Shown here piece after piece: positions 3 to 5,209 of a stretch of DNA of 5,209 nt. This DNA is from a virus (lineage: Duplodnaviria; Heunggongvirae; Uroviricota; Caudoviricetes). Within the stretch, counting starts at the first letter, position 1; each line of letters opens with the position of its first letter. The notes beneath the pieces were generated by a model. That model was not told where the DNA came from, ran no database searches, and was given only the letters and a program-made list of their open reading frames with translations. Both the position numbers and the translations under genes were made by a program. The stretch is taken from positions 1 through 5,209 of the IMG/VR virus record IMGVR_UViG_2690315922_000002, one strand, 5' to 3'.

Positions 3-212
3 GAAGCGGTATATGACGAGAACAGTAGCGCCGCGCCATTTGCTGAAATCATTGTGACGAAAAACCGTTTTGGCTCGCTTGGTACGGTTTACCAGCGGTT
101 CTGCAACGGACACTTTGTTGCATGTGACCAGGATGAAGCCAGACAGATTTGCACAGCATCAAATGCACCTGCTGCGCGTGGCAGACGATATGCACAAGGG
201 GCTGACGTATGA
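3..212 (+). CDS. 3' end of an upstream ORF (partial, 69 codons in window); product not recognised
   Basis: Frame open from the window edge (...[53 protein letters not shown]) to TGA at 210-212, followed 25 nt later by an intrinsic terminator. No start codon context can be judged inside the window. Confidence 0.35.
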
Positions 213-237
213 CCATCTACATCACTGAGCTAATAAC

Positions 238-269
238 AGGCCTGCTGGTAATCGCAGGCCTTTTTATTT
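238..269 (+). terminator. Rho-independent terminator (possible tR2-type terminator of the nin region)
   Basis: Perfect 8-bp stem AGGCCTGC (238-245) / GCAGGCCT (254-261) with an 8-nt loop, followed by TTTTTATTT (261-269). Position upstream of ninB matches where lambdoid phages carry N-sensitive terminators (established knowledge; identity with lambda tR2 not verified). Confidence 0.6.
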
Positions 270-284
270 GGGGGAGAGGGAATC

Positions 285-491
285 GTGGTTGAGTTGATTT
301 TCTCTGCATTGAGGCTTCTCGGTGCTATGTGGATGGTGGCGACGTTCATTGTGGTTGCTCGCTGTTTTGTCCGGTTGGTAGGCGAAGGTAAAGACCTGGT
401 GGGTGTGCTTTTCGGTAGCATTCTCCTGTGGGTGATTATCGGTGTTGCGCCTGTCGCTGTAGCAAAAATGGCGTGGCGTTTTGTGAGTTGA
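285..491 (+). CDS. Small hydrophobic protein (68 aa), probably two transmembrane helices; unrecognised family
   Basis: ORF in track with GTG start at 285 preceded by GGGGGAGAGGG (271-281) as a Shine-Dalgarno-like purine run; stop TGA 489-491. Translation is dominated by L/V/I/A/F/W stretches (LLGAMWMVATFIVVA; VLFGSILLWVIIGVAPVAVA) separated by a charged loop (RLVGEGKD). GTG start and short length make this a tentative call. Confidence 0.4.
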   Translation: MVELIFSALRLLGAMWMVATFIVVARCFVRLVGEGKDLVGVLFGSILLWVIIGVAPVAVAKMAWRFVS

Positions 492-508
492 ACTGAGGGT
501 AAGTACCG

Positions 509-886
509 ATGGACGAATCAAGAAAGCAGTTTGAAGAAAGTTGGTTGCGACGTGGGGGCGAATCTTCAGACCTTATCCGTTACCCTGAAAATCACCATGA
601 AATTGGCTGCGGTAATATTGGTGGTCAATACGTGATGGACGATGTTCAAGGCCACTGGCAAACGTGGCAGGCATCGCGAGCAGCTATTGAACTGGATATC
701 GACTGGCCCGAATCGAATGACGACTTTTGGAAAGATGGTGAAGAAGGTGCTTATGCGATGGGTTATGAGGATGGGAGAGACAAAACGGTAATTGCAGTAA
801 TGAAAGCTATCAGAGCCGCTGGAATTAAAGAGAAGAATTTCGATGAAGCAAATATACATGCTTCGCAACGAAGCAATCAGAAATAA
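509..886 (+). CDS. Hypothetical acidic protein (125 aa) in the position occupied by ninA-type genes; family not recognised
   Basis: ATG at 509 with GAGGG (495-499) about 9 nt upstream; stop TAA 884-886. Acidic, W-rich translation (DIDWPESNDDFWKDGEEGAYAMGYEDG). Its 3' end overlaps the ninB start by 44 nt. Confidence 0.5.
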   Translation: MDESRKQFEESWLRRGGESSDLIRYPENHHEIGCGNIGGQYVMDDVQGHWQTWQASRAAIELDIDWPESNDDFWKDGEEGAYAMGYEDGRDKTVIAVMKAIRAAGIKEKNFDEANIHASQRSNQK

Positions 887-1289
887 CGCCATAGACGCAA
901 TACTCTCACTTCCCATCGACGACAAGTCACCTCACGAAGTCCACGTTAAAGAACCCAGGCGGAGTAATCCTCAAAACCGCCTTATGTGGGCGTTATTGCA
1001 GGACGTATCACGTCAGGTGCTTTGGCATGGACAGAGACTTGCGCCGGAGGACTGGAAAGACCTGTTCACTGCCCTGTGGCTTAAGACCAAAAAACTAGAG
1101 CAACGAAGTGTGCCTGGTATCGATGGTGGCGTTGTCATGCTTGGTGTGCGTACCAGCAAAATGCGAAAGGCCAGCATGACTGAGCTTATCGAAATCATGT
1201 TCTGGTTCGGAGCAGAGCGCAACGTGCGGTGGAGTGATGACTCCCGGCGAGAGTATGAATGGGCACAACGAAAAGGGAGGGCTGCATGA
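843..1289 (+). CDS. ninB: NinB-like recombination protein (lambda Orf146 family)
   Basis: 148-aa translation matches lambda NinB as recalled in length and conserved blocks (NAI...NPQNRLMWALLQDVSRQVLWHGQRL...DWK...FTA...ERNVRWSD...EW...RAA). Start at 843 (MKQ...) aligns with the lambda N-terminus; an alternative ATG at 858 is possible. Stop TGA 1287-1289 overlaps the next start (ATGA). Confidence 0.8.
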   Translation: MKQIYMLRNEAIRNNAIDAILSLPIDDKSPHEVHVKEPRRSNPQNRLMWALLQDVSRQVLWHGQRLAPEDWKDLFTALWLKTKKLEQRSVPGIDGGVVMLGVRTSKMRKASMTELIEIMFWFGAERNVRWSDDSRREYEWAQRKGRAA

Positions 1290-1988: not shown

Positions 1989-2390
1989 ATGTTTTTAATT
2001 CAACCTGGATTTGGCCTTAGCATTAAAAAAATGCACATGTTTGGCGAGAAAGAGTCACAACGAAAAATGGTGTTTATCAGATTGCCATTTATCAGTATTT
2101 GTTGGCCAAACAGGGAGGCAGCAATTTATTTGTCTACATGCGCCAGAGCAGCATTTAACGACCCTGAGTGGTTTGTAGAAAACCATCACGCTGTTCGTCA
2201 GGCGAAGAGAAAAGCTAAAACGACATACATGAAGGCGTATCGAAAAGCATGGAAAGAACACCACGATCGATACCAGCAAGACATGGAAAAGCTTGAATCA
2301 GAAAACATGGAATTAAGACGAAAGCTTGGTGAAGCAAAACGAGACATTGATGCTTACAAGCGACTTTTTAATGGTGAAAGCCATGCTTAG
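1989..2390 (+). CDS. Hypothetical protein (about 133 aa) with basic, heptad-like C-terminal region; family not recognised
   Basis: Open frame 1947-2390 in the track. Preferred start ATG 1989 with GAGGA (1977-1981) 7 nt upstream; alternatives are ATG 1983 (ATGA overlap with ninE stop), 2031 and 2067. The 5' portion (1990-2100) is AT-rich, so the true start may be internal. C-terminal part (KAYRKAWKEHHDRYQQDMEKLESENMELRRKLGEAKRDIDAYKRL) looks coiled-coil-like. Stop TAG 2388-2390. Confidence 0.45.
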   Translation: MFLIQPGFGLSIKKMHMFGEKESQRKMVFIRLPFISICWPNREAAIYLSTCARAAFNDPEWFVENHHAVRQAKRKAKTTYMKAYRKAWKEHHDRYQQDMEKLESENMELRRKLGEAKRDIDAYKRLFNGESHA

Positions 2391-2559
2391 CCCATCCCAA
2401 TCCCTTCAATACCAGAAAGAAAGCGTCGAGCGAGCTTTAACGTGCGCTAACTGCGGTCAGAAGCTGCATGTGCTGGAAGTTCACGTGTGTGAGCACTGCT
2501 GCGCAGAACTGATGAGCGATCCGAATAGCTCGATGTATGAGGAAGAAGACGATGAGTGA
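2383..2559 (+). CDS. ninF: NinF-like protein (cysteine-rich, putative zinc-binding)
   Basis: 58-aa translation MLSPSQSLQYQKESVERALTCANCGQKLHVLEVHVCEHCCAELMSDPNSSMYEEEDDE matches lambda NinF as recalled. CxxC...CxxCC spacing. Start ATG 2383 overlaps the preceding ORF's stop; an alternative in-frame ATG lies at 2371. Stop TGA 2557-2559. Confidence 0.75.
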   Translation: MLSPSQSLQYQKESVERALTCANCGQKLHVLEVHVCEHCCAELMSDPNSSMYEEEDDE

Positions 2560-2770
2560 TTCGTTTAGTAGCTCTGATTATTTGTATTTGGTTTTAGTAC
2601 CTGTGGCAGAAGTATTCCGCTCTCGATTTCCTGAAGGCTCAGCACCATTTAATGCCATTAGCACTTGCTCAAAATGCAGAGTGAAATTTACAGGTAAGCG
2701 GCTGGAAAGAGAGTGGCAGCAATTCTGCAAAAAACATGACCTAAAAAATGACCATGAACTGGAGTATTAA
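2552..2770 (+). CDS. Hypothetical small protein (72 aa); family not recognised
   Basis: ATG 2552 with GAGGAAGAAG (2539-2548) upstream; overlaps ninF stop by 8 nt; stop TAA 2768-2770 lies immediately before the next ATG (2771). Translation MSDSFSSSDYLYLVLVPVAEVFRSRFPEGSAPFNAISTCSKCRVKFTGKRLEREWQQFCKKHDLKNDHELEY. Confidence 0.5.
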   Translation: MSDSFSSSDYLYLVLVPVAEVFRSRFPEGSAPFNAISTCSKCRVKFTGKRLEREWQQFCKKHDLKNDHELEY

Positions 2771-4225: not shown

Positions 4226-4267
4226 CAGCATGATTGCCACGGATGGCAACATATTAACGGCATAATA

Positions 4268-4310
4268 TTGACTGTTTGAATAAAGTTGGGTAAATTTGAC
4301 CCAAGAATGG
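4268..4310 (+). promoter_or_regulatory. Late promoter pR' with overlapping qut (Q-utilisation) region
   Basis: TTGACT (4268-4273), 17-bp spacer, TAAATT (4291-4296), then TGACCC and a -10-like AAGAAT (4303-4308) at the position of the lambda pause-inducing element (AACGAT in lambda as recalled). The sequence differs from the lambda pR' region as recalled at only a few positions up to 4310. Confidence 0.7.
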
Positions 4311-4496
4311 CAGATTTATATCCGTTCACATTCTTTCAGCTTTTACCCACCTCATCTTTAAGTTCTAAGCGCACTGACATGCGCATCATAAACTCGAGAG
4401 CACATAGGAATAGAGCCTGAGAAATATCGCTTTTGGCGACTTCTCTCGTGGTGATATTTCTATGTCAGCAGGCTCTAATATCTATGTGGTTCGCCT

Positions 4497-4661
4497 ATGT
4501 TAAAACGTGAAGATGCATTGAGACTTTTTAATTACAATCCAGATACTGGAATTCTTACATGGAGGATTCATGTAGGGTGTTTTGACGATATCGAGGAGGC
4601 TAGAAAGGCAATGGAAAATGCCAGAATAAAATATCATGGTGAATTCTCCAGTATGGGATAG
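4497..4661 (+). pseudogene. Remnant of an HNH/AP2-type homing endonuclease gene (54-codon in-frame fusion of the N-terminal and C-terminal ends)
   Basis: Translation MLKREDALRLFNYNPDTGILTWRIHVGCFDDIEEARKAMENARIKYHGEFSSMG. The N-terminal Y-x-P-D/E-T-G-x-L/F-T-W motif and the C-terminal AP2-like G-x-F-x-x-x-E-E-A...A-x-x-K-Y-H-G-E-F are both present, but the roughly 100-residue HNH catalytic core between them is absent. No convincing Shine-Dalgarno sequence. Not in the ORF track because it is under 60 aa. Confidence 0.55.
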
Positions 4662-4663
4662 AT

Positions 4664-4780
4664 GGGGTAATTCGCTCGTTGTGGTAGTGAGATGAAAAAA
4701 GGCGGCGCTTTACTACCGATTCCGCCTAGTTGGTCACTTCGACGTATCGTCTGGAACTCCAACCATCGCGGGCTGAGAGG
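4664..4780 (+). other. Segment homologous to the 5' part of the lambda pR' transcript (6S RNA / late leader), displaced about 355 bp downstream of its promoter
   Basis: ATGGGGTAATTCGCTCGTTGTGGTAGTGAGATGAAAAAAGGCGGCGCTTTACTACCGATTCCGCCTAGTTGGTCACTTCGACGTATCGTCTGGAACTCCAACCATCGC... agrees with the lambda sequence just downstream of pR' as recalled. Resemblance ends near 4780; the lambda tR' hairpin (GCCTGCATAACGGTTTCGGGATTTTTT) is not present. Confidence 0.5.
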
Positions 4781-4821
4781 TTTGCAAATATTGACGCAAT
4801 AAAGTTGCTAATGTGGTAACT

Positions 4822-4848
4822 AATACCCCGTATCTCTGTGTGGGTATT
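4822..4848. terminator. Weak hairpin, possible bidirectional terminator (end of antisense ORF; possible tR' substitute on + strand)
   Basis: AATACCC (4822-4828) / GGGTATT (4842-4848), 7-bp stem with a 13-nt loop, followed on + by TAATTATTTC and on - by a modest T-rich tail. AT-rich stem, so predicted stability is low. Confidence 0.3.
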
Positions 4849-4851
4849 TAA

Positions 4852-5031
4852 TTATTTCAATAGTTCCTGAAATTCAGCGACTAGATCCGCATGTCTTTTC
4901 ATTAGTGGTGTGATAAGACTTTTCTTGTTTTCATCAGAGTGCGTTGACATGGCTATTTGCAAGGTTTTATCAGAGATCTCTTGAAGTAACATATGGATTG
5001 CGTGGAGCCTTCTTGTGTCAAAGTCATTCAT
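4852..5031 (-). CDS. Small hypothetical protein (59 aa), antisense to the late transcript; family not recognised
   Basis: Minus-strand ORF hand-translated as MNDFDTRRLHAIHMLLQEISDKTLQIAMSTHSDENKKSLITPLMKRHADLVAEFQELLK. The ATG (complement of 5029-5031) is preceded on the minus strand by AAGAAGGA about 10 nt upstream; stop is the complement of 4852-4854. Below the 60-aa cutoff of the ORF track. Lies in an AT-rich segment with no resemblance to lambda. Confidence 0.4.
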   Translation of the reverse strand: MNDFDTRRLHAIHMLLQEISDKTLQIAMSTHSDENKKSLITPLMKRHADLVAEFQELLK

Positions 5032-5209
5032 TTGTGTTTAATCCTTCTTTATATGAATGACAACATTAGCACAACATTTCTGAAATGCATAACCAACCAA
5101 ACACAAAGCATACAAAACAATCACCTTATCCGCTGTGGTACGGTGCGGTGTTCTTTGCATAAAAGAAAACCAGCGCAATGGCTGGCTTCGTGAAAGCGGG
5201 TGGCAAGAG

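What the first reader, a model, noticed from the sequence alone, without database searches (positions are those of the whole stretch)
285..886. Two unrecognised ORFs between the terminator and ninB: a small membrane protein and an acidic 125-aa protein
Directly after a strong intrinsic terminator lie a 68-aa, probably two-helix, membrane protein (GTG start) and an acidic W-rich protein whose 3' end overlaps ninB by 44 nt. Neither matches a family I can name. Small membrane proteins in prophage early regions are often host-killing or exclusion factors, but nothing in the sequence establishes a function here.
Basis: inference. Interest (0 to 1): 0.45.

Follow-up and report, generated by a model that had tools for sequence, protein, structure and literature searches.

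The report
Two uncharacterised lambdoid nin-region accessory genes
The interval holds two real but already catalogued phage genes of unknown function, a small two-helix membrane protein and an acidic soluble protein, sitting in a variable slot between a terminator and the recombination gene ninB of a lambda-like prophage; this is an ordinary finding.

Summary
The tR2-type terminator lies at 238-271. A 68-codon GTG-started two-helix membrane ORF lies at 285-491. An acidic (pI 4.8), Trp-rich 125-codon ORF lies at 509-886 and overlaps ninB by 44 nt.

Both are genuine genes. ORF68 is intact, at exactly 68 codons, in all 90 recoverable copies, down to 44% identity, and always about 10 nt after tR2. 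ORF125 belongs to a family of 704 clusters.

Both belong to catalogued families, though neither family has a known function. ORF68 is PHROG 1165. It is not NinA, which is a 27-codon ORF at 209-292. ORF125 is PHROG 343, and its near-identical relatives carry Pfam PF26207 (Phage_phiTE_015). Near-identical copies are deposited as "hypothetical protein" in mEp213, HK022, Kapi1 and E. coli prophages.

The two genes are separable: 30 of 92 loci have ORF68 directly followed by ninB. No promoter-like site was found, and ORF68 starts 14 nt after the terminator's T-run. By analogy with lambda they are therefore N-dependent delayed-early lytic genes, not prophage-expressed morons.

The ORF125 model (pLDDT 81) has no solved structural relative. 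The family swaps two hypervariable cassettes between conserved helices, which hints at a variable binding partner.

Function remains inferred. Interest is low to moderate.

The parts
238..271 (+). Intrinsic terminator tR2 (stem 238-261, T-run 262-271) closing the replication-gene segment of the early-right operon
   Evidence: Terminator scan. The sequence is 96-100% identical in nearly all related loci. It is annotated tR2 in HK620 and Nil2.
209..292 (+). 27-codon 'ninA' mini-ORF ([27 protein letters not shown]). It spans the terminator, overlaps the helicase stop (ATGA) and overlaps the ORF68 start. It is doubtful as a gene.
   Evidence: Translation. The HK620 ORF annotated ninA, 'similar to P22 NinA', differs at only 2 of 27 residues. 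The same ORF is annotated in 933W and Nil2.
271..284 (+). Ribosome-binding region GGGAGAGGGAATC for ORF68. From my own knowledge of the lambda sequence, this is the tR2-linked junction that precedes ninB in lambda.
   Evidence: Read directly from the sequence. ORF68 starts about 10 nt after the conserved tR2 block in all loci.
285..491 (+). ORF68: a 68-aa basic, two-transmembrane-helix protein of PHROG 1165 (unknown function), GTG start
   Evidence: The Kapi1_027 record carries a DeepTMHMM note.
509..886 (+). ORF125: a 125-aa acidic soluble protein of PHROG 343; its near-identical relatives carry Pfam PF26207 (Phage_phiTE_015). Residues ~110-125 are an out-of-frame read of the ninB 5' end.
843..1289 (+). 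ninB (Orf-family recombination mediator). Its first 44 nt overlap the end of ORF125.
   Evidence: Pfam PF05772 at E 1e-48. PHROG 72.

Best explanation
The interval contains two independent accessory genes from the lambdoid 'nin-region' gene pool. They sit in the hypervariable slot between terminator tR2 and ninB.

What is shown:
- ORF68 is a conserved 68-aa two-helix membrane-type protein (PHROG 1165).
- ORF125 is a soluble acidic protein of the phiTE_015 family (PHROG 343; Pfam PF26207 on its close relatives).
- In ORF125, three conserved helices (head ..SRKQFEE.W, linker W..WQASRAAIE, tail AIRAAGIKVK) frame two hypervariable cassettes, and these cassettes are exchanged between phages.
- The two genes occur with or without each other.
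- No promoter-like site was found for either gene.

Inferred from the lambda paradigm:
- Both genes are transcribed only when N-modified RNA polymerase from pR reads through tR2.
- They are therefore delayed-early lytic-cycle genes co-expressed with ninB through Q. They are silent in the repressed prophage and dispensable for basic growth.

Inferred with low confidence:
- Both are host-interaction factors acting during lytic development.
- ORF68 would act in the inner membrane, either modifying envelope physiology or blocking entry or an envelope-linked host response.
- ORF125 would act as a small binder whose swappable cassettes set specificity for a variable host or phage partner, with counter-defence as the leading guess.
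For: The genes are real and conserved.
- ORF68 is intact in 90/90 copies, with fixed length and a GTG start in 89/90.
- 23 residues are invariant across variants down to 44% identity.
- In-frame pN/pS is the lowest of the three frames in deep comparisons.
- ORF125 has 704 related clusters and matches PHROG 343 at E 1e-33. PF26207 is recorded on its 95-97% identical relatives and is named Phage_phiTE_015. BLASTP to phiTE_015 itself gives E 2e-7.

The slot is variable and the genes are separable.
- Among 92 loci, 30 have ORF68 directly before ninB, 51 have ORF68, then a phiTE_015-family gene, then ninB, and 6 have other inserts.
- 933W and Nil2 carry the phiTE_015-family gene without ORF68.

Expression logic.
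- The terminator ends 14 nt before the GTG, and there are 0 promoter-like sites in 1-1400, against 1.4 expected by chance.

Cassette shuffling.
- 42 distinct genes combine 7 N-cassette alleles and 6 C-cassette alleles in 14 combinations.
- Nucleotide identity is 98% within alleles, 35-40% between alleles, and about 85-91% in the constant segments.

Structure.
- The AF2 model has mean pLDDT 81, and the N-terminal domain scores 90-98.

Dispensability.
- Literature states that nin genes are non-essential in the laboratory and are drawn from a pool of 30-50 genes (PMC5630979).
Against: Nothing here measures function, expression or localisation.
- The promoter scan covers only sigma-70 consensus sites.
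- Within the closely related E. coli clade, selection on ORF68 is weak: pN/pS is 0.54, and one off-frame control is lower.
- There is no hit in PADLOC, Pfam or NCBIfam, in PDB by sequence or in PDB by fold. The host-interaction role therefore rests on position, composition and allelic diversity only.
- Cassette shuffling could simply reflect ordinary lambdoid mosaicism at conserved junctions rather than selection for new specificities.
Confidence: 0.55

Rival explanations
1. ORF68 is a prophage-expressed moron. It would be a superinfection-exclusion or host-killing membrane protein made in the lysogen, as the first reader leaned towards.
For: ORF68 is small, basic and has two TM helices, like several exclusion proteins (established knowledge: HK97 gp15, P22 SieA, T4 Imm). 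It is optional among related phages.
Against: There is no promoter-like site. The start codon lies 14 nt after the T-run of a strong terminator, inside a co-directional operon. The gene uses the shared tR2-linked ribosome-binding site in every locus. It occurs in podoviruses (Kapi1, HK620, Stx phages) and in HK022 and the mEp phages, which from my own knowledge are siphoviruses, so it is not linked to one injection machinery.
Confidence: 0.12
2. ORF125 is a functional partner of NinB in recombination, translationally coupled to it through the 44-nt overlap.
For: ORF125 lies immediately upstream of ninB and overlaps it here and in mEp213. Family members also sit directly upstream of ninB in Hafnia prophages that have different replication modules.
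Against: 30 of 92 loci have ninB with no family member upstream. The overlapping tail is allele-specific and absent when the ninB allele differs; in those cases the protein ends ..KVKE. Distant family members sit near integrases, or in the lytic phage phiTE, without NinB.
Confidence: 0.08
3. ORF125 is a restriction-alleviation or anti-restriction accessory that works with, or like, Lar-family proteins.
For: phiTE_015 lies directly next to the Lar-like gene phiTE_014 (PF14354, E 2e-11). Stx phages carry a phiTE_015-family gene and a Lar-family gene in the same tR2-ninB slot. Some family members carry an N-terminal Cys4 zinc-ribbon extension (P0028). The protein is acidic.
Against: ORF125 itself has one Cys and no Lar match even at E<=10. 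The zinc-ribbon extension does not match the Lar profile. No ORF of the window scanned against Pfam matched the Lar profile. The adjacency evidence comes from only a few lineages.
Confidence: 0.12
4. ORF68 is a holin, antiholin or pinholin-like regulator of lysis.
For: It has 68 aa and two TM helices, with conserved Gly, Pro and small residues on the helices (G13, G44, G53, P56, A60). From my own knowledge, this size and layout resemble class II holins such as S21-68.
Against: It lies in the early operon, not in the late lysis cassette. After TM2 there are only about 8 residues carrying two positive charges, rather than a long charged tail. There is no holin match in PHROGs or Pfam.
Confidence: 0.05
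5. ORF68 is not a gene but a chance open frame in a conserved untranslated leader between tR2 and ninB.
For: The antisense frame is also open over the same 68 codons in most variants. Within the close clade, pN/pS is not clearly lowest in frame.
Against: The sense frame alone is open in all 48 DNA variants. The antisense frame is broken in some, with a minimum of 42 codons. Length, start, stop, hydrophobic pattern and 23 invariant residues persist at 44-53% identity, where dS exceeds 1. A Shine-Dalgarno sequence is present. Several groups and PGAP annotated the gene independently.
Confidence: 0.03

Closest known systems
PHROG 1165 (e.g. Kapi1_027, HK022_58, the mEp213 gene at 14849-15055, and an unannotated ORF at HK620 12384-12581)
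   Same: Full-length profile match (1-68 of 68, E 4e-36). Same length, same two hydrophobic helices, and the same place directly after tR2.
   Different: Nothing of note. The window's copy is 96% identical to the Kapi1 copy and 94% to the HK022 copy. The family has no known function.
Pfam PF26207 Phage_phiTE_015 / PHROG 343 (type member: Pectobacterium phage phiTE gene 015; also 933W orf5, Nil2 ORF29, HK022_59)
   Same: It shares the conserved F8, E9, W12, W50, W53-Q-A-S-R and A-G-x-K-x-K positions and the overall layout. It is 66% identical to the mEp213 and HK022 members overall. 933W orf5 is 89% identical over the shared C-terminal part.
   Different: At 125 aa it is longer than the usual 90-105 aa. 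It carries the longest N cassette, plus a 16-residue tail produced by reading the ninB 5' end out of frame. The PF26207 model is missing from the local Pfam copy, so that match is indirect.
Lambdoid nin-region accessory genes in general (ninB-ninI; pool of 30-50 genes, Juhala et al. 2000 as cited in PMC5630979)
   Same: Same operon, same mosaic behaviour, optional presence, and expression downstream of tR2.
   Different: Lambda itself has nothing between tR2 and ninB. Here two extra genes occupy that junction.
Phage morons and superinfection-exclusion membrane proteins (HK97 gp15, P22 SieA, T4 Imm)
   Same: A small membrane protein that is optional among relatives.
   Different: There is no own promoter or terminator unit, no sequence similarity, and it is placed inside the delayed-early operon.

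Membership tests
PHROG 1165 (ORF68) | Significant full-length match to the family profile | tested here: met
   E 3.7e-36, residues 1-68 against profile 1-68 of 68.
PHROG 1165 (ORF68) | Two transmembrane helices in a 68-aa protein | tested here: met
   Kyte-Doolittle 19-residue windows peak at 2.09 (residues 11-29) and 2.54 (residues 41-59). The record of the 96%-identical Kapi1_027 carries a DeepTMHMM note. No dedicated topology predictor was run here.
NinA of P22/HK620 (considered for ORF68) | Homology to the ORF annotated ninA | tested here: not met
   The ORF annotated ninA is the 27-codon ORF spanning tR2, at window 209-292. ORF68 is a different frame that lies downstream of it.
Pfam PF26207 Phage_phiTE_015 / PHROG 343 (ORF125) | Significant match to the family profile | tested here: met
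   PHROG 343 at E 1.3e-33, and phiTE_015 itself also falls in PHROG 343. PF26207 is precomputed on the 95-97% identical relatives P0001 and P0002. The PF26207 model is absent from the local Pfam copy, so it could not be scored directly.
Pfam PF26207 Phage_phiTE_015 / PHROG 343 (ORF125) | Pairwise similarity to the type protein phiTE_015 | tested here: met
   BLASTP gives 29% identity over 104 columns, E 2e-7.
Pfam PF26207 Phage_phiTE_015 / PHROG 343 (ORF125) | Conserved signature F-E-x-W ... W-x-x-W-Q-A-S-R ... A-G-x-K-x-K | tested here: met
   F8, W53, S56 and G105 are invariant, and R5, E9, W50, A55, R57 and K109 are at least 90% conserved, in 82 diverse members.
Lar restriction-alleviation family PF14354 (considered for ORF125) | Cys4 zinc-ribbon matching the Lar profile | tested here: not met
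   No Pfam hit at E<=10 and only one Cys. The neighbouring genes in phiTE and SH2026Stx1 do match the Lar profile.
Moron (autonomous prophage-expressed unit) | Own promoter upstream and terminator downstream, allowing expression from the repressed prophage | tested here: not met
   There are 0 sigma-70-like sites in 1-1400. The gene starts 14 nt after the tR2 T-run, and no + strand terminator follows before ninB. Only consensus promoters were tested.
Holin / pinholin (considered for ORF68) | Profile match, location in the late lysis cassette, and a charged C-terminal tail | tested here: not met
   There is no holin family among the PHROG or Pfam hits. The gene lies in the early operon upstream of Q. 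The C-terminal tail is about 8 residues with 2 positive charges.
Known anti-phage defence proteins (PADLOC-DB) | Match to any defence-system model | tested here: not met
   No family at E<=10 for either protein.

The most novel reading that the evidence does not exclude
The phiTE_015 family (ORF125) would be a modular counter-defence or host-targeting binder. Its two hypervariable cassettes, shuffled between phages at conserved helix-coding junctions, would set target specificity. ORF68 would found a new family of lytic-phase inner-membrane effectors, for example exclusion of competing phages during lytic growth or neutralisation of a membrane-linked abortive-infection system.
Probability: 0.15. 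Interest if true: 0.6.

Novelty: already known. Interest (0 to 1): 0.22.

Why it matters
As it stands this adds little. Both genes are already in public phage and E. coli records as hypothetical proteins, and both are already grouped in PHROG or Pfam families of unknown function.

The value of the follow-up is practical, in four respects.
- It removes a mis-lead: ORF68 is not NinA, and it is not wired like a moron.
- It gives both genes a precise address. They sit in the tR2-ninB accessory slot and are N-dependent delayed-early genes by inference.
- It shows that culturable model phages (mEp213, HK022, Kapi1) carry them, so deletion tests are easy.
- It flags the unusually clean two-cassette shuffling in the phiTE_015 family. 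That family is large (704 clusters at 50% identity), has a confidently predicted N-terminal domain and has no solved structural relative. If the cassettes determine a binding specificity, the family would be a worthwhile target for anti-defence screens.

Tried and rejected
- Pfam, NCBIfam and PADLOC scans of both proteins returned nothing usable.
- PDB sequence searches with family profiles found nothing for ORF125. For ORF68 they gave one chance hit at E 1.3.
- The first AF2 model, built from 32 close sequences, was poor (pLDDT 60). Its BFVD search returned only uncharacterised homologues.
- The AFDB library was unavailable.
- Rfam found no RNA family in the window.
- Literature searches for PF26207, phiTE_015, Kapi1_027 and nin-region membrane proteins found no functional study.
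- I first read HK620 'ninA' as the ORF68 homologue from the feature list. The coordinates showed it is the 27-codon ORF across tR2, so I dropped that reading.
- The allele matrix built from the hits is biased, because the hits were selected by similarity to the query. I replaced it with the ORF68-anchored loci.
- A species-representative genome scan gave only 5 loci. Three of them are MAGs assigned to unrelated taxa, which I take to be mis-binned enterobacterial phage DNA.
- Neighbour analysis of distant family members gave no consistent partner gene.

Full report
**Context**

The window is the early-right 'nin' region of a lambdoid prophage. In order it contains:
- the 3' end of a DnaB-type replicative helicase, ending at 212 (weak DnaB_C match; annotated helicase in mEp213, Kapi1 and E. 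coli);
- terminator tR2;
- the two ORFs in question;
- ninB (PF05772);
- a Dam-type methyltransferase, NinE, an unassigned 133-aa ORF, NinF, an unassigned 72-aa ORF, YbcO, RusA and NinH;
- the antiterminator Q.

No complete E. coli genome in the collection matches 80% or more of the window in one place. The window is therefore a mosaic of common modules.

**Observation**

- Terminator: 8-bp stem (6 G-C) at 238-261, followed by TTTTTATTT.
- ORF68: starts with GTG at 285, 5 nt after a GAGGG Shine-Dalgarno, and ends at 491. The product is basic (pI 10.0) and very hydrophobic (GRAVY 1.53), with two hydrophobic stretches.
- ORF125: runs 509-886, with pI 4.77, 25 acidic against 15 basic residues, and 5 Trp. 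Its last 44 nt overlap ninB, which starts at 843.

**Are they genes?**

I collected 92 related loci from annotated phages, species genomes and IMG/VR.

For ORF68:
- The frame is intact in all 90 recoverable copies (48 distinct DNA sequences), always 68 codons.
- The start codon is GTG in 89 of 90 copies.
- It always lies about 10 nt after the conserved tR2 block.
- Variants from mEp213, HK620 and Salmonella P22-like phages are only 44-53% identical. They still keep the length, the hydrophobic pattern, the loop motif LV..GKD, the C-terminal P..(I/V)AK.AW.F, and 23 invariant residues.
- In near-versus-far comparisons, pN/pS is 0.52 in frame, against 0.79 and 1.04 in the two shifted frames.
- Within the close E. 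coli clade the signal is weak (0.54, with one off-frame control lower).
- The antisense frame is also open in most variants but is broken in some. I read this as a by-product of Leu/Val-rich codons.

For ORF125, gene status is not in doubt.
- It matches PHROG 343 at E 1e-33.
- Homologues 95-97% identical carry a precomputed PF26207 hit.
- A profile of 32 members finds 704 clusters at 50% identity in an exhaustive search. Most are 90-105 aa and cover the whole profile.

**Identity**

- ORF68 is PHROG 1165, of unknown function.
- ORF68 is not NinA. The ORF annotated ninA in HK620, 933W and Nil2 is a 27-codon frame that spans the terminator hairpin. It is present here at 209-292.
- ORF125 belongs to PHROG 343. 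Its close relatives carry Pfam PF26207, whose name, Phage_phiTE_015, appeared in the contig look-ups.
- PGAP uses 'phiTE_015 family protein' as a product name at one matching E. coli locus.
- ORF125 aligns to phiTE_015 itself at 29% identity, E 2e-7.
- The PF26207 model is not in the local Pfam copy, which explains the empty Pfam scans.
- Both proteins are deposited as 'hypothetical protein' in mEp213, HK022 and Kapi1, and in 71 of 5426 complete E. coli genomes that carry at least 80% of window 200-900.

**Anatomy of the slot**

Among the 92 loci:
- 30 have ORF68 directly followed by ninB;
- 51 have ORF68, a phiTE_015-family gene (sometimes plus others), then ninB;
- 6 have other inserts;
- 5 lack either ORF68 or ninB.

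933W and Nil2 lack ORF68 but carry a phiTE_015-family gene, a DUF7301 gene and a Lar-family gene in the same place. The two ORFs are thus independent modules in a hypervariable junction. In lambda itself that junction is empty (my knowledge of the lambda sequence).

Residues ~110-125 of ORF125 (EANIHASQRSNQK) are an out-of-frame reading of the ninB 5' end. With another ninB allele the tail reads EANNIPPN, or the protein simply ends ..KVKE. The tail, and hence the 44-nt overlap, is a junction by-product rather than a conserved feature.

**Expression logic (inferred)**

No sigma-70-like promoter is found in 1-1400, where shuffles give 1.4. ORF68 begins 14 nt after the terminator's T-run.

By the lambda paradigm (tR2 is overcome only by N-modified polymerase; nin deletions make lambda N-independent; cited in PMC5630979), both genes should be delayed-early lytic genes. 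They should be silent in the repressed prophage. This argues against the moron or exclusion-in-the-lysogen reading.

**Structure and function of ORF125**

- With 82 diverse sequences, AF2 gives mean pLDDT 81. The N-terminal domain (1-60) scores 90-98 and consists of a helix, a short helix, a beta-hairpin and a helix.
- Foldseek against PDB finds nothing at E<=0.001.
- BFVD returns only uncharacterised homologues.

The three conserved sequence blocks coincide with the three main helices. Between them lie two cassettes that are effectively unalignable between alleles.
- In loci chosen through ORF68, and so unbiased for ORF125, 42 distinct genes combine 7 N alleles and 6 C alleles in 14 combinations.
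- Nucleotide identity is 98% within alleles, 35-40% between alleles, and 85-91% in the constant blocks.

This is sub-gene mosaicism with conserved junctions. It is compatible with selection for changing binding specificities, but also with ordinary lambdoid recombination.

The associations with Lar-family genes are suggestive but thin, and ORF125 itself has no zinc ribbon. They are:
- phiTE_014 lies next to phiTE_015;
- both gene types share the slot in Stx phages;
- some family members carry zinc-ribbon extensions.

Neighbours of distant family members include integrases in three loci, one NinB/NinG/P set, DUF7301, HNH and a methylase. No partner is consistent.

**Function of ORF68**

ORF68 has no similarity to anything characterised. 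It occurs only in lambdoid phages and prophages of Escherichia, Shigella and Salmonella, irrespective of virion type or replication module.

Conserved Gly, Pro and small residues on both helices suggest specific helix packing. The position argues for a membrane action during lytic growth. Anything more specific, such as exclusion, anti-abortive-infection or envelope remodelling, is a guess.

**Verdict**

The genes are ordinary, already catalogued members of the nin accessory pool with unknown function. The only mildly unusual point is the clean two-cassette shuffling in the phiTE_015 family.

Noticed in passing
window 509-886 and loci L001-L092: The phiTE_015 family gene is a combinatorial mosaic. 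It has a constant head, linker (WQASRAAIE) and tail, with two hypervariable cassettes between them. There are 7 N alleles and 6 C alleles in 14 combinations among 42 distinct genes. Nucleotide identity is 98% within alleles and 35-40% between alleles.
   Followed up: partly
window 209-292 (+): A 27-codon hydrophobic mini-ORF ([27 protein letters not shown]) overlaps the helicase stop, spans the whole tR2 hairpin and overlaps the ORF68 start. It is annotated 'ninA' in HK620, 933W and Nil2. Its coding status is doubtful, because the terminator lies inside it.
   Followed up: partly
window 285-491 (- strand): The antisense frame of ORF68 is stop-free over all 68 codons in most variants and is part of the 85-aa minus-strand ORF 264-521. 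It is broken in some variants, with a minimum of 42 codons. It looks like a by-product of the Leu/Val-rich sense codons.
   Followed up: yes
window 4226-5209: Downstream of Q, where late genes would be expected, lies a remnant of an HNH endonuclease gene. Window 4226-4788 corresponds to about 889 nt in other E. coli genomes, so about 326 nt are missing internally. ORF 4497-4661 is a fragment of that gene. The AT-rich stretch beyond it, with a minus-strand 59-aa ORF at 4852-5031, was not examined.
   Followed up: partly
window 1989-2390 and 2552-2770 (+): Two further nin-region ORFs, of 133 aa and 72 aa, have no significant Pfam match. They are as uncharacterised as the two ORFs in the finding.
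   Followed up: no
L099 1250-1465 and 1932-2147; L003 1495-1710: Stx phages carry one or two copies of a 71-aa DUF7301 (PHROG 1785) gene in the same tR2-ninB slot. A DUF7301 gene also turned up among the neighbours of distant phiTE_015-family genes. This may be a recurring companion gene.
   Followed up: no
L009, L011, L012: Three metagenome-assembled genomes assigned to Cellvibrionaceae, Bacillota and Collinsella carry 85-89% identical ORF68 copies in a typical E. coli lambdoid context. These contigs are probably mis-binned enterobacterial phage DNA.
   Followed up: no
window 859-898 (- strand): Two terminator-like hairpins with T-runs lie on the minus strand inside the ORF125/ninB overlap. 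The count (3 in the region, against 1.1 +/- 1.3 in shuffles) is not beyond chance.
   Followed up: no
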